Positions 5,826 to 60,316 of a DNA stretch of 64,000 nucleotides are shown piece by piece (positions within the stretch are counted from its first letter, which is position 1; each line of letters starts with the position of its first letter). This DNA is from Cyanidioschyzon merolae. Its lineage: Eukaryota. The translations under genes and the position numbers were made by a program. The notes below the pieces were generated by a model. That model was not told the DNA's origin. It did no database searches and worked only from the letters and a program-made list of their open reading frames with translations. The DNA lies in NCBI GenBank assembly GCA_000091205.1, contig AP006494.2, one strand, 5' to 3'.

Positions 5826-7439
5826 ATGAAGTACATTACGAACCTGAAGAACCATTTGACAAAGAACCTGGAACGCTTCATGAAACGCGCCGTGTTTGCA
5901 CCCTACCCAGGCATCTCTTGCAATGGAAAATGGGCGATTATCCATGGCATCACGAATGATCGAAAGTATGAAGATGAGATCGAATTTGTCGACAAGAAGG
6001 CGTCAAAAGAGAGCACGAAAGAAGCTTCTGCGATCCGCGCGGTTTTACAAGAGCATCGTGCGCGACTGGGGCTGGCGAATCCAACAGGCAAGGTATCAGA
6101 GCTCAAAAAAGATAAGGAGAGATACTATCGCCTCATCCTGCGCTATTTTGTGTTGTTGGACCGTGAACTCGAACGCGAAGCGGAGATGAAGCTGAGTGAA
6201 GAGACAAATGAAGAGTGGGAGAGACGGAAGGCTTTCCTAACGGGGAAGCGCGTCAATGTGGTTCCGTTGGGCAACATCAAGTCACATTTTGTGACTATCG
6301 ACTCCGCAGTCCTTCATGGCATCATGAGGGAGATCAGTCCCGAGTTCGATGTTAGCAGGGAGGAATTCTCCGGTGAAAACCGGGAGACGTACTGGATGAG
6401 CATCTTCGATTTCAAACGTCCCAAAGTGAGCAAGAAAAAGGTATTCACAGGGTCGATCGAAACAGATGGAGTAGCCTTGTGTGTACACTATCGGCGGTTG
6501 AAGAAAGTTCGTCCAACTCCGCCTTCGGCTGCGCCCGTCATGAAGGATGAAGAAAACAAAGAGGAGGTTCCTGTGACGCAGGAGGAGCAGGATGACGACC
6601 TTGTCGTTGGCGTGACGAAGGATGAAGAAAACAAAGAGGAGGATCCTGTGACGCAGGAGGAGCAGGATAACGATTTTGTCGTTGGCGTGACGAAGGATGA
6701 AGATGAGAAGGAGGCGAGTCCTGCGACGCAGGAGGTGGAGAATAACGACTTTATGGTTGACGCGACGAAGCATGAAGAAAAGAAGGAGGCGGATCCTGCG
6801 ACCCACAAAGTGCAGGATAACGACTTTGTCGTTGGCGCGGACCCTGGGAATACGAGTATCATAAACATCGCTGCTCCCAAGCGTGCGGAAGATGGTACTG
6901 ATGGTAACTTACGTCAGAAAGACATGCGTCTGTTGAGGTTCTCGAGAGCCAGATACTATCGAGAATCGGGAATCATAAATGCAAGGAAGAAAATCGAGAC
7001 TTGGAATTCAGGAATGAAAGAGCACCTGGAAGCTTCGAGCGAGGTGACGAGCCGAGGAGCGGACTTTGAAGCTTTTCGGAAATTCACGGAAGTTCGCGTT
7101 GCTCATTGGGAGGCGCCGTGGGAGGAGTATACCAAGCCCCGGTGGGCTCGTTGGCGTATGAATTTGTATTGTGGGAAGCAGCGGGCATTCGCGAATTTTT
7201 TCAATCAACTGAGTGCCCTGAAGGAGAATCAAAGTGAGAGGTTGGTAGTGACGTACGGAGCAGGGCGCTGGATGACCCAAAAAGGAACTACGCCAGCTCC
7301 AACGACGAGAACGTACAAGGAGTGTGCACGGCGTTTTGTTACGATACCTGTAGATGAGTTCCGAACCTCGTATACACACCATGAGCTGGTGTGTACACTT
7401 CAGAGAGTTCGAGATGGAAAAGTGCCAGACGAACCCTGA
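5826..7439 (+). CDS. TnpB/Fanzor-like RuvC nuclease, main body (WED/REC-like region, RuvC-I, RuvC-II)
   Basis: 537-aa ORF. The motif [16 protein letters not shown] (Asp codon 6840-6842) matches the RuvC-I G-x-D-x-G motif of TnpB/Fanzor. The motif [11 protein letters not shown] (Glu codon 7355-7357) matches the RuvC-II V-x-E-x-x-TS motif. Spacing between the two is about 172 aa. An internal 4 x 25-aa acidic tandem repeat lies just upstream of RuvC-I. Confidence 0.5.
6543..6842 (+). repeat. Four tandem 75-bp in-frame repeats (25-aa acidic units) inside the TnpB/Fanzor-like ORF
   Basis: The unit gacgAAGGATGAAGAAAACAAAGAGGAGG.TCCTGTGACGCAGGAGGAGCAGGATAACGA.TTTGTCGTTGGCGTGACG repeats at 6543-6617, 6618-6692, 6693-6767 and 6768-6842, diverging progressively. 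Each copy ends in D(N/D)DFVVG(V/A), and the last copy runs into the RuvC-I GADPG motif. Confidence 0.9.
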
Positions 7440-7740
7440 GGATATGAAAAAGTACGGACCGCTGACGGAGGAGCAAATGGAAAGGAGAGCGAAATTTCGA
7501 GGGCTACTTGCATTAGTAAGTACAACCAGTGATGGCACGAAACGTATGGAGTTTGTGAACCGTGACTTTCATGCCGCTGTGAATATACGGAGATGCACGG
7601 TGCTGGAGAAGAGACCTCCAGAGTGGACAAGAGAGAACTTTGTTGGACAACCTCTCAAAGTCGAACTATATGAGAAAAAGTTGGAAGCAATAATAGGTGG
7701 CCGGTCCAGAAAGGCTGGGACGCATCTGCACGTCAGTTGA
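7354..7740 (+). CDS. C-terminal segment of the TnpB/Fanzor-like gene carrying RuvC-III
   Basis: 128-aa ORF overlapping the end of 5826..7439 in the +1 frame. It contains FVNRDFHAAVNIRRC (Asp codon 7564-7566), matching the D-x-N-A-A-x-N-I RuvC-III signature of IS605 OrfB/TnpB, Cas12 and Fanzor proteins. Cys/His residues between RuvC-II and RuvC-III (CVHF...EKC) may be a degenerate zinc finger. The frame shift implies a pseudogene or a short intron. Confidence 0.5.
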   Translation: MSSEPRIHTMSWCVHFREFEMEKCQTNPEDMKKYGPLTEEQMERRAKFRGLLALVSTTSDGTKRMEFVNRDFHAAVNIRRCTVLEKRPPEWTRENFVGQPLKVELYEKKLEAIIGGRSRKAGTHLHVS

Positions 7741-8871: not shown

Positions 8872-9496
8872 GAGGCATCAGCAGGAGCGGTTATGGGCAT
8901 AAAGCTTAGTCTGCGATCTTCACAACAGATGAAACTGGTGTATTTTAAACGCGAGGTGAGGGGATGGAGATCCATTGTATTTGGACTGGTATAAAGTGCT
9001 TGAACTCGTTCGCCCTGGGCAGCATGCAGACGCTCACCATCCTTCCTGGCGAGGAACGCGTTTCGGACCGTGTATGTCTGCTGTTGACGGCTACAGCAAC
9101 TGACAGACGCCTGCTGCGCGTGCCTGTGCGCCGCGTGAATGAAGCAGGAGCAGCATGCCCTGCGCTCACTTGGACAACTTGCTCATAACCCGGAGACTGC
9201 ACCGTACGTGGCGACCAAGTTGTATCTGCGTTGCCGAGAGCATGCCTCACGCAGACGCGCCCTTCGAGTAACGAATGGGATACCGCCGCTACGGAGGATA
9301 CCCGGGGGGAATCGTCATCGCCACCATCCCCGAGGAAAGACGCGCACCTCGATGGCTGCGCCTCTCGAGCGGGGCGAGGCGGCCGCCGTCGGCTCCATGT
9401 CATAAATGTCTAGTTTGATCTCATTCGAGGCGGAAGTGCTGACAGCGCTGTGCGCCTCGATAGACGGCTTCACTGGCGCGTTCCAGGTGTGCCATT

Positions 9497-11191
9497 GTGT
9501 GCCCTGCTACGAAGCGCACTCGATCCTACTGGGGGTTACAGGGTGCCCGCTCGTGCTTTCCAATCGACGAGGACATGGGGGATTTCTTGTTAAACGGGAA
9601 CCCAAAGTCGCCAGTGGAACGCAAGCTTGCGTCTTCGCCCGTGCAGAAAGCAAAGCCGCTGCCTCCGTGTCCTTTTAACGAGCAGGAGCTTTTTTACTGC
9701 AGCGACGGTGCCTCCGCTGCGGAAGTTTTCGAGAACTCCACCGTAGGCTACGCTTACAACGACATCATACTCCTGCCTGGGCATATCTACTTCTCTTCGG
9801 ATGATGTGAGCTTAGAAACGCGTATATCGCGTCGCATCGCGCTGAAAACCCCGCTTGTCTCGTCGCCGATGGATACGGTGACCGAGTCCGCGATGGCGAT
9901 TCACATGGCGCTGCACGGGGGTCTCGGAGTCATCCACTACAACAACACGATACGTGAACAGAAGAAAGAGGTTGATCGGGTGAAGCGGTTCGAAAACGGC
10001 TTTATTACGGACCCCAAAACGCTCTCTCCGGAACACACAATCGCCGACGCGAGAGCGATCAAAGCGCGCTACGGCTTTATGGGTATACCGATCACGGAGA
10101 ACGGCGCCATGTATAGCCGGCTGCTGGGGATTGTCACGAATCGTGACATCGAGTTCATCCGCGACCCCAATACCAAGCTCGGCGACGTCATGACCCGAGA
10201 CCTGGTGACTGCCCCCGAAGGCATCGGCCTCGATGAAGCGTACGCGATCGTGAAGGAGAGCAAGAAGGGCAAGTTGCCGATTGTGAATGAGCGCCACGAA
10301 CTCGTAGGACTTGTTGCACGCACGGACATCTTGAAAAACCGGGATTTTCCGAACGCGACAAAGGATCGGGTGGGAAAGAAACTTCTCTGTGGCGCAGCGA
10401 TCGGTACACGCCTGGAGGATCGCGAACGCCTGGATGCACTCGTGGAGGTCGGGGTTGACCTCATTGTCCTTGATTCGTCCCAGGGCGACTCGGTATTTCA
10501 ATTGGAGATGCTTCGGTATATTAAGAACAAGTACAGCCACCTCGAGGTCGTCTGTGGGAACGTTGTGACCACGACCCAGGCGTACCATTTGCTCAAAGCA
10601 GGCGCTGACGGGTTACGCATCGGTATGGGGTGCGGCAGCATCTGCACAACCCAGGAGGTCATGGCGTGTGGTCGACCACAAGCCACTGCAGTGTATCAGG
10701 TAAGCAAGTTTGCGCGCGAGCACGGGGTCCCGACCATTGCCGACGGCGGTGTGAGCAGCATCGGCCATATTATCAAGGGTCTCGCATGTGGCGCCAGCTG
10801 TGTCATGATGGGCAGCATGCTGGCTGGTACCGAGGAGGCACCCGGCGAGTATTTCTACAAGGACGGTGTTCGCCTGAAAAAGTACCGCGGAATGGGTAGC
10901 GCTGAAGCAATGCAAAAAGGCAGCGCTGTGCGCTATTTTAGCGAAGATGATCGGATTTTTGTGGCGCAGGGGGTCAGCGGCGCCGTCGTCGACAAGGGTT
11001 CACTACGACGATACCTCCCGTATTTGATCAATGGTATCAAACACGGTTTTCAAGATCTGGGCGTACCCAGTTTGGAAGAGTTGCATAACCGGCTGTACAA
11101 CGGAAGATTACGGTTTCAAGTGCGCACGCTCGCGGGCCAACTCGAAGGTGCCGTGCACTCTCTCTACACTTATGAACGTAGCGCAGTTTAG
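9497..11191 (+). CDS. IMPDH: Inosine-5'-monophosphate dehydrogenase (IMPDH); likely true start at ATG 9575
   Basis: About 65% identity by eye to human IMPDH2 across the whole length. It has a tandem CBS pair ([13 protein letters not shown]...[22 protein letters not shown]), the catalytic Cys loop [26 protein letters not shown], and the C-terminal KKYRGMGS...RYFSE...VAQGVSGAV region. The ORF is intact. Confidence 0.94.
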
Positions 11192-12047
11192 CTGGCCGAA
11201 GCAGGTACTGCGACCTGGATCAGTCGAGTCTCCGTCTATACCTATGTACACAGCGTGGTGTTGATTTTCCCTGGAGGTCTTGGAGCATGTCGACGTCGAG
11301 CCAAGGCGCCAAGCGCACCCATCTACCAGGCATGTATCCGCTTTCCCGGACACGACAGACAACGCCGCCCGAGAAACCCATAGCCACGCGAGCACGCGCC
11401 CTGGCATACAGGCCCGGTGCCGTTGTGTCCCCCGTTTCCCGAGACAGGTCATAAACAAACCTCAGAAAAGCAGACTCCCACGACTAACGGTTACCGCTTG
11501 CACGCCTCATACGCTGTGCATGCTGCGTACGATCGACGGCATCGAATAAGCGCGTCATGAGGTTGCCGTTTGAGAGCGCCGGCCCAGAACGCCAAGCTAT
11601 GAAAAGCGCGCAGGTACCGGAAAAGCAGCTTGGTTTGTTACTGGAGCGAGGTTGTGTGCAGCTTTAGGAGGCGAGACATGCTGGAGACCGCGTTTCTTCA
11701 GTTGTTCCCGGTTGAAAAACCAGGAACAAGCAACCATTCGTCAACTGTGGTGGCACCGTGCGAAATGTTTGCATGCAGCATCTCGTCCACTGGCCTGGGA
11801 ACGTGCACGAACCGCTGGACGGTGCACGGAAGCCTTGCACCCGTCGTTTGGAATCCAGGCGGACACGAACAGTCCAGTCGCGATATCATGCAGGCATGCC
11901 GCTGACAACGCTGAAGGCACTGCTCCAGCGCTCTAGTCGTGTTGGATTAGAATGAAGCACTGAACTGCTTTCTGTATTTCTGGGCTGGGATTTTTCTCCG
12001 ACTTTTTTCTCTGAGACATACGGCCTCGGCGCTGGGAACGCAGCTAC

Positions 12048-12680
12048 AAGGGTTTACGGATGCGTACGCAGTTTGAGAATTCTCGGACGTCTTTTCGGTG
12101 TGGCCTGTTCGACTTTCTGCCGCTGGCTTTCGGTACATTACCGGACTGAAGATGGCTGGTGACGCTCTCGGAAACGGAGTCGTAAACTATCCGACATCAT
12201 GATCGAACGCTCACGTACAAATATTCATTCCTCAGTTTTCCTTACGTGTGGCATAGTTAAATCGTGCATGCTTTCTGTTTCTCTATCTTTCTATTTGACG
12301 CAACTCCCGGGGGCTGCAGTTCGTTGTCATGGACCTACGATCTTGTGAATTAGTCACCAAGCGCTACCATCGAGTTTTTTCCCTCGTCAATCCAGCTGCA
12401 CAAATTGCTATGTGCACAAGTTTCGCTGAAACAGAAAAAAGATAGACAGACGGCCAGCGTACGAAATCTGAGCATGCCAAACGTAAGGAAAACTGAGGAA
12501 TGAATACTTGTACGTGAGCGTTCGATCATGATGTCGGATAGTTTACGACTCCGTTTCCGAGAGCGTCACCAGCCATCTTCCGTCCGGTAATGTACCGAAT
12601 GCCAGCGGCAGAAAGTCGAACAGGCCGCACCGAAAAGACGTCCGAGAATTCTCAAACTGCGTACGCATCCGTAAACCCTT
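12048..12680. repeat. Near-perfect inverted repeat (two 200-bp arms, about 98% identical, 233-bp loop) forming a potential 633-nt hairpin
   Basis: Arm 12048-12247 (AAGGGTTTACGGATGCGTACGCAGTTTGAGAATTCTCGGACG...CCTCAGTTTTCCTTACGT) is the reverse complement of 12481-12680 with only 4 mismatches. The six-frame track shows the same peptide (MYR.PAAESRTG.TEKTSENSQTAYASVNP) on opposite strands at 11947-12138 and 12590-. Confidence 0.9.
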
Positions 12681-12890
12681 GGTGGTGCTCGCTGAATGTC
12701 CGGAATGTACATCTGAAAAGAGTATCGAACAAGTCGCAAGGCAGGAGCACAGCGAGTAGTTCTGTGTTCGATTGTAATCTGACACGGGTGTTCGGTACAC
12801 GCATCAAAGTACATGCGTATCGTCGCGAAACTGCACGGTTCCCATGCTTGCCGCCTACCACGCAGCACACCCGTGATAAATCGGATATCG

Positions 12891-14480
12891 TCAAACCTGC
12901 TTTTTCGATTCGCTACTATTTCCCTGCTCGAGATGCTTCTGCTCTACGTTGCCGTTCCCATCGGATACATCTGCTTTGCCGCTTGCGTCCGGAAGAGCTC
13001 TAGTCCAGCCGATCTCGGTGACGAGCAGGGCAACTCGCTGTTTGAAGCCGGCTTCAGCGAGCGTCATCGCGCTGTGGCTCGCTGGCGAATACGCTCGCTT
13101 GGGAAAGTTCGTGGTGAGCTCGAAGCGATCAAAGTCGATATCGGCAGAGGTCTCGGCCCAGTCGAAAAGATCGCGGAAGCTCCGTGATAACTCGAAGCGA
13201 CGCTGAGTACTCTTTCCGTCTGGTAAGCGTAGTAGCACTGTGACGACATGCTCACCCGGTTCTGGCTCAGGGCCTAGGGCAGCCCGCTTACGATCCAGCA
13301 TCGCCATCCGTTCGCGCCTTCGTTGATCCTGCTCCGCTGCTTCCTCACGAGCGCGTTGCTCGAATTCTCGACGGGCACGTTCCGCTGCTTGATCCGCCGC
13401 CAGCGCCTCTTGAAACTCTCTATCTTGCTCCTCACGCAGTCGCTGCGCTGATCGGCGTCGCTCACGCATGGTATGAGCAGTTCGAAGCGCATCCCCGTAC
13501 TCCAGAAGCACATTCTGGAGCCATAACAGCACATCAGTGGCAGTGATTGGCGCGTCTCTGCCACCACGCATCGAACGATCCAAATCACTTAGTACTCGAA
13601 GATCGATCAGCTGCCCGAGCGGCCATCGACGTGAAGCGAAGACCACCGCCAGGTACGGGTATCCGGCAGGTGTGAAGTAGGAGGCCAGCTCTACTGCTTC
13701 AGGAGAACGGTTCACCGAGGCTGCATAGAAAACAAAGTTCTCATTCACAAACTGAATGAAGCTCTCATCCGAAAGTATCTCACGGACGAAACGATCTGTC
13801 GCGTGGTGAATTTCTGAATGCAAGTAGAGCAGCACCAATTTGCACCTCTGCGTTGAGTGCTCCAGGGCTTCCTTGAATGTTCCATGGTAAATCGTTGGAT
13901 AGCGGATTGTCATACCGTATCTAGTGCGCAAGTTCTCCTCTAGCTCGGCGACTGCGGCTGCGCCCACAGCTCGCGAGCGACCAGCGTATCGGTAATAACG
14001 ATCTATGCCCATAATACGAGTCACCAGAGATGCGCACCATGCTAATACCATGCGTAATGCTTGGAAGGGGAGCGCCAGGAGCCGACGCAGATGCCCCAGC
14101 ACACCTGAAGGTGTTGCTTGTGCCAGTGCCGGCTGCAGCGCCCGCTCCGGTGTCGACGTTTCCGCGAGTGCGGGTGTCAGCGGCTGCGACTCACTGAGCC
14201 TAGACGCGTGCAGCTGCCCAGAGACCGGGGCACTCGACAGCTCGGACGCATCTGGTGTAGTGCCCGAGGTGTCAGATGTTGACGCGAATTCCAAACTTCC
14301 AGTTCGATTAGGCGGCTGCAGTGCGCCCTCGACACCGCGAGTCAGGAAAGCATCAACGGCTCTTTCAATGTTCCAGTTGTGCGCAGACAAAATGGCTCTC
14401 GCAACTTCGTTATCATCCAGAGCGGCGATATTCTTGAAAAGTGCGAGGGTTTCGTTCTGAGAATCCTCCGTAGCAGCCAT
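12891..14480 (-). CDS. FAF2/UBXD8-like UBX-domain protein (UBA-like, UAS/thioredoxin-like, coiled coil, UBX), 529 aa
   Basis: N-terminal UBA-like segment (ALFKNIAALDDNEVARAILSAHNWNIERAVDAFL). UAS/thioredoxin-like region (CKLVLLYLHSEIHHATDRFVREIL...FVFYAASVNRSPEAVELASYF). Glu/Arg-rich coiled coil (REFEQRAREEAAEQDQRRRERMAMLDRKRA). C-terminal UBX fold (VTVLLRLPDGKSTQRRFELSRSFRDLFDWAE...FELTTNFPKRAY). Confidence 0.8.
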   Translation of the reverse strand: MAATEDSQNETLALFKNIAALDDNEVARAILSAHNWNIERAVDAFLTRGVEGALQPPNRTGSLEFASTSDTSGTTPDASELSSAPVSGQLHASRLSESQPLTPALAETSTPERALQPALAQATPSGVLGHLRRLLALPFQALRMVLAWCASLVTRIMGIDRYYRYAGRSRAVGAAAVAELEENLRTRYGMTIRYPTIYHGTFKEALEHSTQRCKLVLLYLHSEIHHATDRFVREILSDESFIQFVNENFVFYAASVNRSPEAVELASYFTPAGYPYLAVVFASRRWPLGQLIDLRVLSDLDRSMRGGRDAPITATDVLLWLQNVLLEYGDALRTAHTMRERRRSAQRLREEQDREFQEALAADQAAERARREFEQRAREEAAEQDQRRRERMAMLDRKRAALGPEPEPGEHVVTVLLRLPDGKSTQRRFELSRSFRDLFDWAETSADIDFDRFELTTNFPKRAYSPASHSAMTLAEAGFKQRVALLVTEIGWTRALPDASGKADVSDGNGNVEQKHLEQGNSSESKKQV

Positions 14481-15040
14481 TCAACAAACGTAGAGGAAAA
14501 TGAATAGAATCTTGACAAGTTCCTCAAGGTAAAAGAGCTGCGGCTACACAGAACGAACGCGATCGGAAGCGTCAACGTGTGCGCAAACAGAGTCCCAAGT
14601 GAGCCCGCAGCCGTGAAACTGCCCTGAAACAGTCGAAACACTTGTCACAACCGTCAAATCTTTAATCAGTTCTCTCAAACCGAGCGATGTAAGTGACTGC
14701 ACTTCTCTCTGTTGATCGTTGCACGAAGCCTGTCGTCGGTGACACGCGTAGAAGTACCGCGCGAGACGAGAGATGCTGCTGCTGCTGCTGCTGAATGCAC
14801 ACCATGTCACGAGCGTTCCTGTCACAGGCGTTGCGGCATTAACGATCGCCATCGAGTGCAGGCGCGGAGGCCGGCGTGCGTCGGCGTCCGTTCGACGGTG
14901 CCAACGGCACAGCGCCGACCACGCAAGCGCCGCGCAACGAGCGGTGCGTCTGGATATGCCCAACGCTGACTACCGCTGATGCTTGCATTGTCAAGAGCCA
15001 ATGATTTTAGGCAATATAGTACAAGCATTTCAAGTTGTAA

Positions 15041-16101: not shown

Positions 16102-19100
16102 ATGCAGATTCCTGAGAACACCGACCATGTTCAGCTGGAACTTGAGGCACGTCGGCGGCCTGGTCGGCCTCCGGTGCACGTTTGGGTTGACCTCCCCGAC
16201 GAGCTTCTCTCTCCAGAACAGAAGCGAAAGAAAAGAGCGATACTCCTGCGCAGGGCGAGACAACAACGTCTGTATGAGCGCCGGAAACTGTTGAGGGCGG
16301 GTATAGTCTCGACACCGTCGGAGAAAGCGGTGATACCGCCGTCCTGCGAGCACGCAGCTGGTGCGCCTCCCGCCAGCCGTAGTCAGGCACAAGCCGAGCG
16401 CATCGACGGCGAACCGCGTTCTATGTCTGCTGATTCGGGACAATTTTCAGGTCGGGCAAACGTTGAATCCGGCGTTGAAGACACCTGGACTGCAGAGCTG
16501 TCCTATACAAATGCACCGAGTGGGGCTCGCAAAAACCTTGAGGGGCAGAAAATTTTTGCAGGGCGGCCACAACTGCTGCCGACCCCGGGACACATGGGAT
16601 TCCGTACCACAGATACACAGAAAAGAAACTGGGAAGGGGCCTTTCCAGATGGGAATAAGCCCAGTGGCATTCGTCTCGAGCCGATGCGGGGAGCACTGGC
16701 TTGCAGCAAGCCCTCGCTCAACGCACCGCATGACACAGACGGAGCGCATATCGACTCGCGATATCCGGACGCATCCTTGATGAAGCATGCCAAGGATGGG
16801 GTATTCGTCGCACAACCGACGCCTCTTGAAGGGGGATCTTATCCGTGCTACCGCGGCGCTTGGGAAGGGCCATCCCGGGAGGCACTTCGGATCCACCCCG
16901 TGACATCATGTGCACTGACGTCGGCCGGTGCCCCGGGCTATGTTTCGGCCTATGGTGAGATCACGGCTGCCCAGCTGGTGCCATCATACGTGATGCCGGC
17001 TGCAGCGCTCATGGGAATCAAGCAAGGCGCTCCAGCGATCGCGGGCAAGGCATCCGTCCATATTGGGAAAGCTGCACTTCCTTCTGTGGTGCCGGCATCT
17101 CCGGGAACCTATGGTGAAAGCCGAGGAATCCGTGAGCCCCAACAGACTCCAGGGATGACGGGCTCAGTCCTGGTCATGTCGCCGGTAACGCCTCCCGACC
17201 TGGATGTGAAGCATTTGGAGATGTCTAGTTCCCAGGCATGGATAACAAAAGGGAGCAACGAGCGGCACGGGCAGAGCTATCTTACGAGACCCACTGTCCA
17301 GGGTTTGCGCACCGATCAAATTTCTGTTGAAGGCCAAGGTCGGGGAACGAATATATGCGACGCGAATGGGATGCTATTGAAGGCTGGGCATCAGGGCGCA
17401 CACCAGGAGACACTCCACAGAACTAAAGCAGAGGCAGAGGTTTGGGGAGATGTGAGCACGCCTCGGCTGCTGGAATCGCGAGTGCGCACGGCGGGAACCT
17501 TACGGAATATCTCCACCGCAGACATGCGTGTTTTCCAACCTGATGCATTGTTGAAGCTTTACCATTCCGTATCGGACTTTGAGCAACGTCTTTTCGTGCG
17601 CCTTACGCTGCCTCCTGCGTGTATAGACGAAGAATTGGTTGCAGTATTGGTTTCGGATGAGGAAAATCCATCCGTATTGAAGGAATCGGATGAAAGCGCT
17701 TCGGGATCAGGGGGACGGCATCTCGAAGAGAACGCCACCGGCCAGGAACAGAGCCACAAGCATGAAGCCGGAAAACGAAGGGCCATAGCATCGGCATTGA
17801 GTGTGTTCGTCGATCACGGATTGTTGCGTCGCGCTAGTTCCTGCTATATTGCAAACGCTTCCTGGCGAGAATTTGTTCAAAGCGTCGTAGCAAACGATCC
17901 AGAGCAAGTTGCGCATGTCTCGCGAGAAGTTCGTGAACGATTCTGCGCCGAATCTTGCGATGCACAGCGCCGTTTTGTGGTATGGATACTCGATCGCTTC
18001 ATTCGCGACGCGCCTGCACTTCCGAATGGCCTGCATTTTGATGATCAAGTAGGCAGCTGTATTCAAGCATGGTTTGCGGAATCGAAGAATCTGTTGGCAG
18101 CGCTTGCGTTTGCATCTGCACAGCGAAGTCGAGCGCTTTCGCAGCTTCTGATTCGAGGCTATTCGGTGATGCGCATGTGCATTTCTCCAGAAGTGCGCGT
18201 GAACTATTTGAGACAAGCGCTGGCGCTGCTTCACCGAACACCGGACTCGGAATCGATTTATGAGTCGAGCGATGCGGCTTCGAGCGGATTGGCGTCGGAG
18301 CGCCAGCAATGCATGCTGGTCAAGTACATGCCACAGAGCGAAGAGGAGGCTCTCTTGCTGCAACTCTTAGGGGCGTCCCTAGTCGACATGCTTCACGTGG
18401 AGGAAGCAGAGCAGCCACTCTGCCAGGCGCTGCGTTATTTCATCGGAGCTCTGGCGCGTCAATTGGGCGTGTCCGATGCAACCATTGAAAAAATTGATGA
18501 TTTATGCCTCGATGAAGAGATCGCCCTCATTCAGAGCGGCTTCTGCGCCGGCGGTAACGCGCCATCAAAGAAACCCGCGCCCCAGGCAACCGAGCTAACG
18601 CGCAAGTGCCAAGCGCGTATGGCGCTTTTACGGTTGGATATGCTGCTGGAGTTGTATCAGCGAAAAGCTGCGGATCAAACGAGCGACGTGTCGTATGTAA
18701 CATCAGAGCCGCGATCCGTGAGTGCCTCACAATCACCAAGTGCTGCATCCGAAGCAAGCCCTCGTTGGAAGGAGGATACAGCGTGTGCGGTACACCAGCA
18801 AAACGCCAGTAATCCGCGAGAGCTACTCCAGTGCTGCGTTGTGTCGCTTCTGCTGCTGAGTCTTCGAATCGGTCTCGAGGGCTCTCGTTCCGAGGCCTGC
18901 GATCTTCTCTACATGTGCCTGCACATTCTCCACGCGCTGGGCTTTTCACGAAGCACGCATGCGGCTGCGACGCTGCTATCGCTCGCTGGAACCTACCTGA
19001 CAAGCGGGCAGTTGATGCGCGCCCGTGACGTGTGCCATCGAGCGCTGGACGTGCTGCGCGAGGGCAGCTTTACCCACACGCCCGTCTATGCCGACGCGCT

Positions 19101-19551
19101 CGGTATGGTCGGTGCAATCGAGCTCATCGAAGGACTGCACCCAGCAGCTGCGGAGCACTTTAGCGCTGCACTCAAAGTGCTAGACTCGTGGCTCGATACC
19201 TATGGAGGTCTACCGCACGAGCACTGTCTCAATAGTCCAGACGATGTCCAGTACTTGCCGCTTCAACACTGCCAAGAGTTGCATCTCTGGCTCTCCATTG
19301 GGCTAGCCCGCACCTGCCGAGCACAGCAGCAACATGAAGCAGCGGAGCGGATCGCGAGCGCTGCGATGACGTGCTGGCGGCGTATCGTTGCGGTCGCCGC
19401 AGTGGACGCAGCGCCGACACCAAAGCCGTGTGTGAGTCTCGGGGCGGCAAACGCTTCCATCCCATCACCGTCATCATCAGCGTATATGGAGGCAGTCTCG
19501 TTGTTGCCTCCTGTTTTTCAAGATTTTGGGAACCTGCGCCACATTTATTAA
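16102..19551 (+). CDS. Large hypothetical protein, 1149 aa, with a C-terminal helical/TPR-like region
   Basis: Single intact ORF with host-like GC-rich codon usage. The C-terminal third is predicted helical repeats (LLSLAGTYLTSGQLMRARDVCHRALDVL...AAEHFSAALKVLDSW). No family is confidently recognised; the true start may lie downstream. Confidence 0.45.
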   Translation: MQIPENTDHVQLELEARRRPGRPPVHVWVDLPDELLSPEQKRKKRAILLRRARQQRLYERRKLLRAGIVSTPSEKAVIPPSCEHAAGAPPASRSQAQAERIDGEPRSMSADSGQFSGRANVESGVEDTWTAELSYTNAPSGARKNLEGQKIFAGRPQLLPTPGHMGFRTTDTQKRNWEGAFPDGNKPSGIRLEPMRGALACSKPSLNAPHDTDGAHIDSRYPDASLMKHAKDGVFVAQPTPLEGGSYPCYRGAWEGPSREALRIHPVTSCALTSAGAPGYVSAYGEITAAQLVPSYVMPAAALMGIKQGAPAIAGKASVHIGKAALPSVVPASPGTYGESRGIREPQQTPGMTGSVLVMSPVTPPDLDVKHLEMSSSQAWITKGSNERHGQSYLTRPTVQGLRTDQISVEGQGRGTNICDANGMLLKAGHQGAHQETLHRTKAEAEVWGDVSTPRLLESRVRTAGTLRNISTADMRVFQPDALLKLYHSVSDFEQRLFVRLTLPPACIDEELVAVLVSDEENPSVLKESDESASGSGGRHLEENATGQEQSHKHEAGKRRAIASALSVFVDHGLLRRASSCYIANASWREFVQSVVANDPEQVAHVSREVRERFCAESCDAQRRFVVWILDRFIRDAPALPNGLHFDDQVGSCIQAWFAESKNLLAALAFASAQRSRALSQLLIRGYSVMRMCISPEVRVNYLRQALALLHRTPDSESIYESSDAASSGLASERQQCMLVKYMPQSEEEALLLQLLGASLVDMLHVEEAEQPLCQALRYFIGALARQLGVSDATIEKIDDLCLDEEIALIQSGFCAGGNAPSKKPAPQATELTRKCQARMALLRLDMLLELYQRKAADQTSDVSYVTSEPRSVSASQSPSAASEASPRWKEDTACAVHQQNASNPRELLQCCVVSLLLLSLRIGLEGSRSEACDLLYMCLHILHALGFSRSTHAAATLLSLAGTYLTSGQLMRARDVCHRALDVLREGSFTHTPVYADALGMVGAIELIEGLHPAAAEHFSAALKVLDSWLDTYGGLPHEHCLNSPDDVQYLPLQHCQELHLWLSIGLARTCRAQQQHEAAERIASAAMTCWRRIVAVAAVDAAPTPKPCVSLGAANASIPSPSSSAYMEAVSLLPPVFQDFGNLRHIY

Positions 19552-48616: not shown

Positions 48617-51313
48617 TGGGCACCTGACCAGCTCTCAAATGCAAGCGTAGTTCAGCAACACAAACACACACACGTCGTCCTTGTTGACGTCGCTGCACTG
48701 AAGCCTACGCAGCGTCCCCTGTGCGGCCACCTGAGCACCGCTCTGTTTGCACCCTATTGCCCACCTTCAACGCTTAAGTGCGACAAAATCCACAAGAGCA
48801 ACCTTCGCTCCGTAATGGGACAAGGTGCAGTGACAAGGAGGTGGAATACCTCCTGGTACTTGTTTCACCTCCAGTTCGTGCTCGTCAGCAATCGATATCG
48901 AGCAGTGTCAGAGTGGATTTCATCGCGATACCCGTCGAGGCTTCTGTTTGCGGGCTGGCTCGAGTGCGCACGCGCCTTGTGGCTGCAGCGTACTGTGATT
49001 CGAAGCAGCGGCGGCGGCAGGCGGCGGCAGGCGATGCGTAACGCGAACGTTTGAACAACGGCCGCCGATGCACGCTGAGACGGCGGCGCGATCCGGGGGG
49101 AATGCCCGCGCTAGCACGCATGCCTGTGCAGCTGCTGCGCTGGCGCGATGCTACCATGGAATCGCATGCATCCAGCGAGGATGGACCTCTGCTTGTGTCT
49201 ATGTGGATTTGATATCGATGATTGGGATAGCGTCTATCAAGCCGCGTCCAATGTTCAAGTTCCAGACGCGTAGGCTTGGGAGCGTGCGCACCGGCCTTGT
49301 TATTTTCTCTCATCCCGGTTTTGGTTCGCACTCGGTGCAATAGATAGCAGGTGATCGACATCACAGTGCAATGTACCGTATAGATCGTAGATGAATTGCC
49401 TGTAGGCTATATATGCTTTCGTGAACAGTGCAAGGCGGACTGCATTCCTCCTGCGGGTAAGTCGTACCACAGTAGTCAGATGGTTGAAGAACGCTGAAAG
49501 AAACAAGTAGATGCGCTCAGCGCCGCATACTGGTATTGTAAAAGACCACTTGCGGTCAGCGGCAGAAGAGCGTCTTTTTGATCACCTTACGGCAAGCGAA
49601 AAGCGACGATCGTATCAACCAACGGCGTCTCTGTTTCTAAGTAGCTTGTTCGTGTAGCTCTAAAAACAATGCGATACGATCGCGGAAAAGAGTTCAGTTT
49701 CATACACGGCCATCTTCCACGCAAAACGCAACTATACGAATAGTTCCTGGAACTCAACGATCGGTATGATGCACAGCAAGAACGAAAATAGGCATTCACG
49801 AAGCTCATCGGATGCACTAGAACAAACTTGCACCATTGTCTTCGCGGACGAACATATGCGTATTCTGATATGCGAGTGCACGAGCAGCGCGTCTCTCTTG
49901 TTGGCTACATGCATACATTCATACATGCATGCAAGTAGTAGTTCTCTAGTGGCATCGACCATGTGCGTATGTTCACCAGTCAGGCATTTTTAGGGAACGC
50001 AAACCCGTATCGCAACTCCGCCAGGATCACCTGTCTACCGCTACCTTACCGCGCGATGCAGTATACCACGGTGCTTGGGCCACTTGCAGTGCGTTCGTCC
50101 ACACAGTATGGGCCAAGTCTGGGCATACACGCCATCAGGATATCCGTCCGGCGATATGGAGGGAAAGTTTCAGCGTGCGCGCTTCTACCGCCCAGTCGAA
50201 AGGCACGGGGAACCAGAGTCGCTCGCTGCCCGGATCCCGAGGCCCTGGCGTATTGAAAGACTGCTTAAACTTCGGCACTGAGAACATAGCAGTTGGACTT
50301 TGGCATGGATACGCCAAATTTTAACCGCGATGTTCATAGGGAGCAGGGAAGGCGCCTTGCGAAGAGCCTCACTGGCGAAGCGGCAACATATCCGGCTTGG
50401 TACGAGCACGGGCTACAAGCGCAGCTGGTCGGTTCATCAGGCCCCAAATACAGCGAGGGTAGTCTGCATATCGCCATAAAATCGTTCTCGCCTTGCTCTT
50501 GAAAAAATACCCCTGAAGCTGATCCATTCACTACGTCACATGCATGATATGAGGAGGAACAAATGCGCTTCCCGTTAAACTGCGTGGGCGCGTGCTTGAA
50601 CGGCTTACTGCCTGGGTATCTGCTCGAGTTTCCGCGTGTATGCTTGCGTAGCGGCAATTTGATCAACATTCATGCACCTTGTATTCGGTATTGCGGTGCC
50701 TTGAACGCATTTTCGCTTCTCGAGAAGAATCATTTGGAATCGGTCAGGCGTTTCGCAAGTACTCCTGTTTTGACGCACGACAAAACATGAACGTGGTTCA
50801 ACACGCCTCTTCACCAAAGCTCCCAGGCAAGCTCCAGATTTCAGCTGGGTTTCCAGTTTCAACCCAGGCGCCTTGACGATCGTGAACATGCGGCCTGCAT
50901 CGATAAACAGCAGGAAAAAGGCATAGCGCTCAGATCATCGGCGCGTTCTCGATCGTATCGTTTTTGTGTAGTTCGACGCTCAGTGCTCATGAATGCAACT
51001 TTAGCAAGAGATAGAGATGGGGCTGTTTCAAAGCAGACACGCTTGCGCCATTTTCGTCACCATAACATCCAAAGCGTATCGCCATGGGTAGCGCTCTGAA
51101 ATCACCGCTCGGTCCCTACACACGAACAACAGCTTGCGCCCTTGTTGTAAAACGAGCCATACGAGCCCCGCTGCGTGTCGTTAGTGCGTTCGTACGCGCC
51201 CAGAACCGCTATTCTGTCGGTGCGCTCGTCGACCTGTCGCTTGAGCAAGAACACCAGCAACTGTGCATACCGCGCCACTGCAGTTGTGCTCTCAATCCTG
51301 ACCTGTGCACTGT

Positions 51314-59027: not shown

Positions 59028-60316
59028 AACCTCGAACGAAACGTGAATGGCGAAATGCCATGCTGATCAATACAAGGACGTTGCCATACATCAGGGAAAA
59101 GTCTTCAGCGATTCGACAAAGTGCTTGGTGCTGTTGTATGAGGCTTCCCTACAAGCCAAACTGAGGCCGCAGACTGAACCCACTGCAGTTCGAAAAGAAG
59201 ACGCCGTCGTTGTCTTCGAGTTCAATCGGACCTACAACGAACGCCCGCTTCGCAAATACCCACGTGGGATACGACCGCATCATCCGATGAATGCCTCATC
59301 GTCTGGAGAAAGAAACCGACGACCCCGTGCTTCACACCGATAACGGCCTTCTAGGAATGAAGTGCTTGCAATTTCAGGGGAAGATGGCCGTGTGTGAAAC
59401 TGGATTCTTTTTTATGATTGTAGCCCAGTGGTTTGGGGACCACACGAACGAGCTGCTGAGAAACAGAGACACCTGTTGTGGCTGCTATGGTCTCTTTTGC
59501 CGTAGGTAATGTGCTGAACGTGTTGTTTTCAACCCTGGGCCGCTGACAGTCTTGGAGAATAGCAGTTTTTGAATCGCATACTGCATATACTTGTTTCTTT
59601 CGGTGGTCCTCAACCATCTGAGTACTGTGACACGACTGACCTGGAGTAGGAATACAGTCCCGCTTGCACTGTTCAGGAAATAAAATATATCCTGCATTCA
59701 TAATGTCGACAATCTATAGGCAACATTGCATAGTCATGTCGTTTTCCTTCTACTCATCGAAGCTGCGGTGGTGGAACAGAATTGAGTCTACAGACAAGCA
59801 GCGGCTACATCTGTTGCTGGAAGCGTACCCGAACGGCCTTCGGCGGCGACTGCCTTCGGCCAACGACGACGCCCTGGGGTTTTCCAAGTCTTGGACTTGT
59901 TAGCGCTTCGCGCTGCTACGGAAACGACGACTTCTGTGGTACTCGAAGCGCAGGACTGGCTGCTTGGTTTTCATACGAAGGTTCTCGCGAGGCCTCCAGA
60001 ACTCCAGCGATAGGTTGACGCTCGCGTCACTCTTTGCGTGTTCGTTTGAGGCAGCACCTGCGGACAGTGCTTTTGCGTTCAAACCCGTACTACACGTCGC
60101 ATTTGTAGCTCTCTAAAACACTCTTCTATTTACAATAGACGAAAATTCCGTGCTTAGAAGTTTAAGCATTCCTCGCCTCGCGTCGTGCCCGGACACTCTT
60201 CCGTGCAGCGAAGGAAGAGAACGTGGTCGGACCACAGAGCAGCGCTCGTACGGATAGCGCTCGGGAATCTCATTTTGACTGTTCGACTAGAGCATCTTTG
60301 TTCAAAGGCACTATCT

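What the first reader, a model, noticed from the sequence alone, without database searches (positions are those of the whole stretch)
12048..12680. 633-bp near-perfect hairpin (200-bp arms, 4 mismatches) in the convergent intergenic region between IMPDH and the UBX gene
Seen directly: 12048-12247 and 12481-12680 are reverse complements at about 98% identity, separated by a 233-bp A/T-richer loop. Such young or homogenised long inverted repeats are atypical for ordinary intergenic DNA. Candidate explanations are a hairpin-RNA (endo-siRNA) locus, a foldback or MITE-like element, or a palindromic fragile site. No target-site duplication is evident at the outer ends (acaag versus ggtgg). It sits where transcripts from two convergent genes would meet, so it could act as a dsRNA source or transcription terminator.
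Basis: seen in the sequence. Interest (0 to 1): 0.65.

Follow-up and report, generated by a model that had tools for sequence, protein, structure and literature searches.

The report
Mirror-image poly(A) sites between convergent genes
The long inverted repeat is real, but in this red alga, which has no RNA-interference machinery, each arm carries the polyadenylation signal and cleavage site where one of two facing genes ends its mRNA, so it acts as a two-way gene-end module rather than a small-RNA source or a transposon.

Summary
The repeat is confirmed. The window is Cyanidioschyzon merolae 10D chromosome 12. The repeat lies between the convergent IMPDH (+) and UBX/FAF2-like (-) genes.

It is not an assembly artefact: six independent metagenome contigs span it at about 99% identity. 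I found no target-site duplication and no second copy, in the window or in a metagenome scan, and the sister genus Cyanidiococcus has no repeat at the syntenic site.

The decisive evidence comes from environmental transcript contigs that end in non-templated poly(A). UBX mRNA is cleaved inside the right arm at 12508-12523 (four contigs). IMPDH mRNA is cleaved at the mirror place in the left arm, after 12203 (one contig). In each arm the cleavage lies 20-37 nt downstream of UAAA, the published C. merolae poly(A) signal, at the mirror positions 12183(+) and 12545(-).

Mature mRNAs therefore carry only one arm. C. merolae also lacks Dicer and Argonaute, so the hairpin-siRNA reading fails. The terminator idea is supported. 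Whether the arrangement is selected or incidental is not settled.

The parts
12047..12254 (+). Left arm (208 bp). Read on the + strand, it forms the last ~157 nt of the IMPDH mRNA plus ~50 nt downstream of the cleavage site.
   Evidence: 203/208 complementary to 12474-12681. The IMPDH transcript contig L037 runs into it and ends in poly(A).
12474..12681 (-). Right arm (208 bp). Read on the - strand, it has the same sequence as the left arm and forms the last ~159-174 nt of the UBX mRNA.
   Evidence: UBX transcript contigs L001, L002, L035 and L036 end in poly(A) inside it.
12255..12473 (.). Spacer (219 bp, GC 45.7%). Its outer parts, 12255-12290 and 12438-12473, are a degraded (~66%) continuation of the repeat. 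The core, 12291-12437, is unique.
   Evidence: No Rfam, tRNA or ORF signal.
12183..12186 (+). UAAA poly(A) signal for IMPDH transcripts, in the left arm.
   Evidence: UAAA is the C. merolae poly(A) signal at 93% of primary sites and lies 3-35 nt upstream of cleavage (PMC8831791).
12542..12545 (-). UAAA poly(A) signal for UBX transcripts, in the right arm. It is the exact mirror of 12183-12186 and the first UAAA on the - strand after the UBX stop codon.
12203..12204 (+). Observed IMPDH cleavage/polyadenylation site: 12 non-templated A follow 12203.
   Evidence: L037, JGI sample 3300050368. Its allele at 12164 differs from that of the UBX-side arm in the same sample.
12508..12523 (-). Observed UBX cleavage/polyadenylation zone, with tails starting after 12521-12523, 12518 and 12508-12510.
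   Evidence: L036, L001, L002 and L035, from four samples, each with 9-13 non-templated A.
11192..12203 (+). IMPDH 3' UTR, long isoform (~1012 nt in 10D; 72 nt longer in wild strains).
   Evidence: L037 is colinear from 9488 to 12203.
12508..12890 (-). UBX 3' UTR (368-383 nt).
9575..11191 (+). IMPDH coding sequence (538 aa; identical to BAM80830.1 of C. merolae 10D).
12891..14480 (-). UBA-FAF1-UBX (FAF2-like) coding sequence (529 aa; identical to BAM80831.1).

Best explanation
The 635-bp inverted repeat is an inverted duplication of a 3'-end-processing region. It now gives the two convergent genes mirror-image copies of one poly(A) site.

RNA polymerase II coming from IMPDH enters the left arm and transcribes UAAA at 12183. 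The RNA is cleaved and polyadenylated about 20 nt later, after 12203. Polymerase coming from UBX enters the right arm and transcribes the identical UAAA at 12545 on the - strand. That RNA is cleaved 22-37 nt later, at 12523-12508. The two cleavage zones face each other across roughly 300 bp.

As a result the mature mRNAs do not overlap. Each contains one arm only and cannot form the hairpin. The two mRNAs end in the same ~160-nt sequence in the same sense, so they are not complementary to each other.

Shown here: the repeat, its presence in wild populations, the poly(A) tail positions, and the UAAA positions. Inferred: that termination follows cleavage in the usual way; that the structure arose by inverted duplication rather than by transposition; and that the arms stay alike because the duplication is recent and/or because the arms exchange sequence.
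For: - The repeat is real and spanned by independent assemblies: L005 and L006 (ENA), and L021, L028, L029 and L030 (JGI), all 99.1-99.5% identical to the window.
- Four UBX contigs from four samples end in 9-13 non-templated A inside the right arm. One IMPDH contig ends in 12 non-templated A at the mirror place in the left arm.
- The short contigs behave like transcripts. Their 5' ends cluster at 14754-14787 for UBX (seven contigs) and one starts at 9488 for IMPDH. JGI produced poly-A and RiboMinus metatranscriptomes of a '10D-like' C. merolae population (PMC11662350).
- UAAA sits at exact mirror positions, 12183(+) and 12545(-), and 12545 is the first UAAA downstream of the UBX stop codon.
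- UAAA is the poly(A) signal of 93% of primary sites in C. merolae, lying 3-35 nt (mean 17) upstream of cleavage (PMC8831791).
- L037 has G at 12164, 40 nt from its tail. The UBX-side contig of the same sample (L026) has C there. This argues against the tail having been borrowed from UBX reads.
Against: - The IMPDH poly(A) site rests on a single contig. Because the arms are nearly identical, a short-read assembler could attach UBX-derived tail reads to the IMPDH-side path. The allele argument assumes one dominant strain per sample.
- All transcript evidence comes from wild relatives about 99.4% identical to 10D, not from 10D itself.
- That the samples are metatranscriptomes is inferred from the contigs and from PMC11662350, not from sample metadata.
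- Some RNA contigs run past the cleavage sites into the spacer (L023, L025, L034, L048, L049), so read-through or distal sites exist.
- An earlier UAAA at 11452(+) may give IMPDH a shorter isoform.
- Nothing here shows that the arrangement is selected. In an organism whose signal is just UAAA, any inserted sequence carrying UAAA would be used.
Confidence: 0.68

Rival explanations
1. Selectively neutral structural accident. A recent local inverted duplication, or a foldback insertion, has no function of its own, and the use of its UAAA sites is a by-product.
For: - Single locus, with nothing comparable elsewhere in the 64-kb window.
- No repeat in either Cyanidiococcus lineage at the syntenic site.
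- The C. merolae intergenic region minus the repeat (1699-635 = 1064 bp) is about the size of the Cyanidiococcus one (1115-1129 bp).
- Variation in the arms looks unconstrained: five variable sites, each simply making or breaking a pair, and no compensatory double changes.
Against: It is compatible with the mechanism above and differs only on selection. The repeat is present in every wild contig that reaches it, from more than 20 samples, so it is fixed and not a transient rearrangement.
Confidence: 0.2
2. Non-autonomous transposon of the MITE or foldback type.
For: The structure is almost entirely inverted repeat with a short spacer. A broken TnpB/Fanzor-like ORF lies 4.3 kb away (5826-7740), so mobile DNA exists nearby.
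Against: - No target-site duplication.
- No second copy in the window, even at word size 7.
- The terminal 22-mer is found only at this locus in the metagenome collection.
- No empty site in any wild contig.
- No match in viral or prokaryotic collections.
- C. merolae is reported to have only about 0.7% transposable elements (PMC1955436).
- Two conserved syntenic genes separate it from the TnpB-like ORF.
Confidence: 0.07
3. Hairpin-RNA locus producing small interfering RNAs.
For: If both arms are transcribed together, the predicted stem is 208 bp (-477 kcal/mol). Some RNA contigs extend beyond the poly(A) sites into the spacer.
Against: - C. merolae is reported to lack Argonaute and Dicer (PMC11376382).
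- Mature mRNAs end in the proximal arm.
- No sequence in the window is complementary to the arms, so there is no candidate target.
Confidence: 0.03
4. Assembly artefact, meaning a falsely duplicated arm.
For: Many short-read contigs break inside or at the edge of the repeat.
Against: - Six independent contigs from two pipelines span both arms and the spacer.
- Contig breaks fall at the outer edge of the repeat (L020) or at arm-to-arm mismatch positions (12601 in L009-L011), as expected for a true inverted repeat.
- The 10D reference was finished with no gaps (PMC1955436).
Confidence: 0.01

Closest known systems
Bidirectional termination zones / bidirectional terminators between convergent genes in Saccharomyces cerevisiae (bioRxiv 10.1101/2022.11.02.514956)
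   Same: Both are compact-genome solutions in which one intergenic element ends transcription from both strands. The sequence symmetry puts the same poly(A) signal on both strands, and the 3' ends of the two convergent mRNAs map symmetrically.
   Different: In yeast a single short palindromic motif (UAUAUA) in a ~120-bp zone serves both strands, and the transcripts usually overlap. Here a non-palindromic signal (UAAA) with ~200 bp of context is present as two full copies in mirror orientation, 362 bp apart. The mRNAs do not overlap, and the symmetry comes from a long, nearly perfect duplication.
Bidirectional intrinsic terminators of bacteria (from my own knowledge: hairpin flanked by A- and U-tracts between convergent genes, Ju et al. 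2019)
   Same: A palindromic element between convergent genes works in both directions.
   Different: In bacteria the RNA hairpin itself causes termination. Here each mRNA is cut before the second arm is transcribed, so the hairpin is not needed for the observed 3' ends.
Hairpin-RNA (hpRNA) endo-siRNA loci of animals and plants
   Same: A long, nearly perfect inverted repeat with a spacer of a few hundred bp, lying in transcribed DNA.
   Different: Dicer and Argonaute are reported absent from the organism. Transcripts end within the first arm, and no target was found.
MITE / foldback transposons
   Same: The overall architecture, which is almost entirely terminal inverted repeat.
   Different: No target-site duplication, single copy as far as could be tested, and no presence/absence polymorphism.
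Large palindromes kept alike by arm-to-arm gene conversion (for example on primate sex chromosomes; from my own knowledge)
   Same: The arms are 97.6-99.5% identical, with a sharp boundary against a much more diverged inner part. The same alleles turn up on either arm in different assemblies.
   Different: The arms are about a thousand times smaller. The allele sharing may also be an artefact of assembling collapsed arms from short reads.

Membership tests
hpRNA / endo-siRNA locus | Dicer and Argonaute are present in the organism | tested here: not met
   Literature only: C. merolae lacks Argonaute and Dicer and RNAi does not work there (PMC11376382). The window is identified as C. merolae 10D by exact protein matches.
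hpRNA / endo-siRNA locus | Both arms lie on one stable transcript | tested here: not met
   Poly(A) tails are added inside the proximal arm for both genes. Read-through RNA into the spacer exists, but no contig carries both arms as RNA.
hpRNA / endo-siRNA locus | Small RNAs of 20-25 nt map to both arms | not testable with these tools
   No small-RNA data are available.
MITE / foldback transposon | Target-site duplication flanks the terminal repeats | tested here: not met
   The flanks are GCAGCTA and GTGGTGC, with no direct repeat at any plausible boundary.
MITE / foldback transposon | Multiple dispersed copies in the genome | tested here: inconclusive
   None in the 64-kb window. The exact 22-mer scan of metagenome contigs gave three contigs, all at this locus. 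The full 16.5-Mb genome could not be searched, and diverged copies would be missed.
MITE / foldback transposon | Presence/absence polymorphism (empty sites) | tested here: not met
   Every wild contig that reaches the site enters the repeat.
Bidirectional terminator between convergent genes | Lies between the 3' ends of two convergent genes | tested here: met
   IMPDH (+) ends at 11191 and UBX (-) at 12891. The same gene order is found in Cyanidiococcus.
Bidirectional terminator between convergent genes | The 3' ends of both transcripts map inside the element | tested here: met
   UBX at 12508-12523 (four contigs) and IMPDH at 12203 (one contig).
Bidirectional terminator between convergent genes | The organism's poly(A) signal is present on both strands at the right distance | tested here: met
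   UAAA at 12183(+) and 12545(-), 20-37 nt (U to cleavage) upstream of the tails. Signal definition from PMC8831791.
Bidirectional terminator between convergent genes | Polymerase actually stops within the element, with no invasion of the partner gene | not testable with these tools
   This needs nascent-RNA or strand-specific coverage. Some contigs show RNA beyond the cleavage sites.
Yeast-type bidirectional termination zone | One shared palindromic signal serves both strands, with overlapping 3' UTRs | tested here: not met
   There are two separate signal copies 362 bp apart, and the cleavage zones are about 300 bp apart and do not overlap.
Palindrome homogenised by arm-to-arm gene conversion | The same variants are shared between arms across individuals | tested here: inconclusive
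   The five variable sites (12101, 12128, 12147, 12164, 12221 and their partners) show both alleles on both arms in different contigs. For example, the left-arm haplotype of 10D sits on the UBX side in L021 and L030. Short-read assemblers can swap or collapse alleles between identical arms, so this is not conclusive.

The most novel reading that the evidence does not exclude
The repeat may be more than two poly(A) sites that happen to mirror each other. It could be a maintained two-layer terminator. In the first layer, each arm ends its own gene's mRNA. In the second, any polymerase that reads through transcribes the second arm and creates a 208-bp RNA hairpin. That hairpin would trigger a fail-safe cut, by an RNase III-type enzyme or at the UAAA that lies at the far end of the distal arm (12672 on +, 12056 on -). 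This would protect the partner gene from antisense transcription in an organism that cannot dispose of double-stranded RNA by RNAi. Arm-to-arm gene conversion would keep the two halves identical. As a side effect, both mRNAs would share an identical ~160-nt 3' end that could co-regulate them.
Probability: 0.12. Interest if true: 0.6.

Novelty: new variant of a known kind. Interest (0 to 1): 0.4.

Why it matters
The result shows one simple way in which a compact genome can gain a two-way gene end: duplicate a poly(A) region in inverted orientation between facing genes. It gives two unrelated genes identical 3' UTR ends. It also places a long perfect hairpin in transcribed DNA of a eukaryote without RNAi. 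C. merolae allows gene targeting, so the locus is a ready-made natural test case. One could ask how termination between convergent genes is enforced, what happens to long double-stranded RNA without Dicer, and whether short palindrome arms exchange sequence. It remains a single locus, so its general importance is modest unless more cases are found.

Tried and rejected
- **RNA families and tRNAs.** Rfam at gathering threshold on the whole window and at E<=1 on 11150-12950 found nothing. A tRNA/tmRNA scan found none.
- **Coding potential.** The arms have stop codons in all six frames.
- **Classical poly(A) motifs.** AATAAA, ATTAAA and TGTAA are absent or irrelevant. The right motif, UAAA, came from the literature.
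- **Outgroup alignment.** Aligning the intergenic region to Cyanidiococcus to decide which arm is ancestral gave no detectable homology. The two Cyanidiococcus lineages do not even align with each other there.
- **Foreign origin.** Exact-pattern scans of viral and prokaryotic genome collections gave no match.
- **Published coordinates.** Full-text search for gene ids CML241C-CML245C found no papers. The supplement of the polyadenylation paper has no entries for these genes.
- **L031.** This contig leaves the locus at 12630 inside the right arm and at first looked like a dispersed copy. It is a chimera with a ~70% GC polyadenylated transcript from another organism, with no Pfam hit.
- **Flipped spacers.** The spacer is flipped in L008/L018, L034 and L049. 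I considered real flip-flop inversion, but short-read assemblers cannot orient a spacer between identical 208-bp arms, so it is not evidence.
- **Centromere.** I considered this for the lower-GC stretch at 4-8 kb and did not pursue it. That stretch is the TnpB-like ORF, not the repeat.
- **Last contig look-up.** L051 and L052 ended about 95 nt after the IMPDH stop and added nothing about 3' ends.

Full report
Positions 12048-12247 and 12481-12680 are reverse complements at 196/200. The near-perfect arms are a little longer, 12047-12254 and 12474-12681 (203/208), symmetric about i+j=24728. Inside them the complementarity continues in degraded form to 12290/12438. The repeat finder reports 251-nt arms at 91%, and the extra 44 positions match at about 66%. 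The spacer between the near-perfect arms is 219 bp and slightly AT-richer (GC 45.7% versus ~50% in the arms). Chance is excluded: a 39-mer of the arm occurs exactly twice where shuffles give none, and the RNA fold is -477 kcal/mol against -200 +/- 6 for shuffles. No other local inverted repeat of comparable size exists in the 64-kb window.

**2. Where we are.** The 538-aa IMPDH (9575-11191, +), the 529-aa UBA-FAF1-UBX protein (12891-14480, -) and the 1149-aa protein at 16102-19551 are identical to BAM80830.1, BAM80831.1 and CYME_CML245C of Cyanidioschyzon merolae 10D. So the window is chromosome 12 of this red alga. The repeat lies in the 1699-bp space between the two convergent stop codons. 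It starts 855 bp after the IMPDH stop and ends 209 bp before the UBX stop.

**3. It is not an artefact, and it is fixed in wild populations.** Exact-protein look-ups retrieved about 50 contigs of C. merolae-like populations from JGI, ENA and Logan, 99.0-99.6% identical to the window. Six long metagenome contigs from two assembly pipelines span both arms and the spacer colinearly (L005, L006, L021, L028, L029, L030). Many other contigs stop inside the repeat. They do so at its outer edge (L020 starts at 12047) or at positions where the two arms differ (L009-L011 stop at 12601). A de Bruijn-graph assembler is expected to break this way at a true inverted repeat. No contig shows an empty site. 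The 10D reference was finished with no gaps (PMC1955436).

**4. It is not a repeat family as far as could be tested.**
- There is no target-site duplication.
- A word-7 BLAST of the whole intergenic region against the window finds only the two arms.
- Viral and prokaryotic collections have no match.
- The arms have stops in all frames, and there is no Rfam or tRNA hit.
- In the sister genus Cyanidiococcus the gene order reticulon-IMPDH-UBX is conserved, but the 1115-1129-bp intergenic region has no long inverted repeat and no detectable similarity. The C. merolae spacing minus the repeat (1064 bp) is about the same size, which fits an insertion or duplication of ~635 bp in the Cyanidioschyzon lineage. 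This is inference.

**5. The decisive finding is where the mRNAs end.** Many of the short JGI contigs behave like assembled transcripts. For UBX they start in a narrow window (seven contigs between 14754 and 14787) and are 2.2-2.6 kb long. Four of them, from four samples, end in 9-13 A that are not in the genome. L036 has its tail after 12521-12523, L001 after 12518, and L002 and L035 after 12508-12510. All of these sites lie inside the right arm, 159-174 nt from its outer end. An IMPDH contig (L037) starts at 9488, runs through the coding region and a ~1-kb 3' UTR into the left arm, and ends in 12 non-templated A after 12203. That is the mirror image of 12525.

Because the arms are nearly identical, I checked whether this tail could have been borrowed from UBX reads. 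L037 carries G at 12164, 40 nt from the tail, whereas the UBX-side contig of the same sample (L026) carries C at the mirror position. In addition, no UBX contig has a tail at exactly that base. JGI poly-A and RiboMinus metatranscriptomes of a '10D-like' C. merolae population at Lemonade Creek are described in PMC11662350. That these particular sample numbers belong to that project is my inference.

**6. The signal.** Long-read sequencing of C. merolae mRNA identified UAAA as the poly(A) signal at 93% of primary sites, 3-35 nt (mean 17) upstream of cleavage (PMC8831791). UAAA is sparse here, at 1.5 per kb per strand. On the - strand the first UAAA after the UBX stop is at 12545, in the right arm. 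On the + strand there is one at 11452 and the next is at 12183, in the left arm. Positions 12183 and 12545 are exact mirror positions. Measured from the U of UAAA, the observed tails begin 20 nt downstream for IMPDH and 22, 27 and 35-37 nt downstream for UBX.

**7. How it most likely works.** Each arm, read from the outside inwards, is an ordinary poly(A) site. The inverted duplication places this site in the right orientation for both convergent genes. Each mRNA is cut within the first arm it meets, and the two cleavage zones face each other across about 300 bp. Mature mRNAs therefore do not overlap, contain one arm only and cannot form the hairpin. Their last ~160 nt are identical in sense, not complementary.
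- Shown: the tail positions and the UAAA positions.
- Inferred: that polymerase terminates soon after cleavage.

Some RNA contigs continue into the spacer (L023 to 12256, L025 to 12445, L048 to 12253, and L034 and L049 into the spacer). Read-through, nascent RNA or distal sites therefore exist, and only such RNAs could fold into the 208-bp stem. Further UAAA motifs lie at 12258(+), 12672(+) and 12056(-). The last two sit at the far end of the distal arm. They could serve as back-up sites, but one UAAA per arm per strand is about what chance gives.

**8. Why the siRNA reading fails.** C. merolae is reported to lack Argonaute and Dicer, and RNAi does not work in it (PMC11376382). Mature transcripts lack the second arm. 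Nothing in the window is complementary to the arms.

**9. History of the repeat.** Five arm positions vary among 10D and the wild contigs: 12101, 12128, 12147, 12164 and 12221, with their partners. At each one, one allele restores pairing and the other breaks it. No compensatory double change was seen. The arms differ by 0-5 mismatches depending on the contig. Both alleles occur on both arms. For example, the 10D left-arm haplotype sits on the UBX side in L021 and L030. This is what arm-to-arm gene conversion or inversion would produce. It is also what short-read assemblers produce when they collapse or swap bubbles between identical arms, so I treat it as suggestive only. The same caveat applies to the flipped spacer in L008/L018, L034 and L049.

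The sharp step from ~98% to ~66% identity at 12254/12255 is unexplained. It could mark the limit of homogenisation, or an older short repeat that seeded a later, longer duplication.

**10. Comparison with known systems.** Functionally the closest known system is the bidirectional termination zone of yeast convergent genes, where a palindromic UAUAUA motif serves both strands (bioRxiv 10.1101/2022.11.02.514956). Bacterial bidirectional terminators are a more distant analogue. The logic is the same: symmetry puts the same signal on both strands. The implementation differs. Here there are two full copies of a non-palindromic signal with ~200 bp of context, 362 bp apart, and the transcripts do not overlap. 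Structurally the element resembles hpRNA loci and foldback transposons, but it fails their defining tests.

**11. Verdict.** This is a real and unusual structure with an ordinary molecular job. I rate it as a new variant of a known kind and of moderate interest (0.4). It is a tidy, testable example in a genetically tractable organism, but it is a single locus, it shows no sign of selection, and one of its two halves rests on a single transcript contig.

Noticed in passing
window 5826-7740 (+): A broken ORF (537 aa plus an overlapping 128-aa frame) carries TnpB/Fanzor-like motifs (DEFRTS..., NRDFHAAVNIRR). It has only a weak sub-threshold hit to PF07282, the Cas12f1-like TNB domain (E=0.04), and no hit in solved structures. 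It is absent from the syntenic position in Cyanidiococcus. It is probably one of the eight 'bacterial-type transposase-related elements' reported for C. merolae (PMC1955436). Wild contigs also show it split into several ORFs.
   Followed up: partly
window 6542-6837: A 75-bp tandem repeat, 3.9 copies at 84% identity, lies inside the TnpB-like ORF and encodes acidic repeats ([18 protein letters not shown]..). A wild contig (L019) breaks here.
   Followed up: no
window 11223-11300 (IMPDH 3' UTR): All wild contigs that cover this stretch carry a tandem duplication here, with a net gain of 72 bp over 10D (intergenic 1771 versus 1699 bp). This is a length polymorphism in the long IMPDH 3' UTR.
   Followed up: partly
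window 49345-49731 and 59366-59752: A second, older inverted repeat pair (170 and 133 nt blocks, 74-76% complementary) is apparently non-coding. It brackets about 9.6 kb holding three ORFs of 306-769 aa.
   Followed up: partly
L031:2189-3306; L022, L024 and L032 5' ends: Chimeric transcript contigs. L031 joins the UBX 3' UTR at window 12630 to a ~70% GC polyadenylated transcript of another organism (328-aa ORF, no Pfam hit). L022, L024 and L032 carry unrelated 5' sequence, and L032 starts with an Illumina adapter. This is a warning about these public assemblies.
   Followed up: partly
L008/L018, L034, L049 versus window 12255-12473: The spacer appears in the opposite orientation in some contigs. 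This is either real flip-flop inversion between the arms or, more likely, the assembler's arbitrary choice between two equally valid paths.
   Followed up: partly
window 12254/12255 and 12473/12474: Arm identity drops abruptly from about 98% to about 66% while the register is kept. No explanation tested here accounts for it.
   Followed up: no
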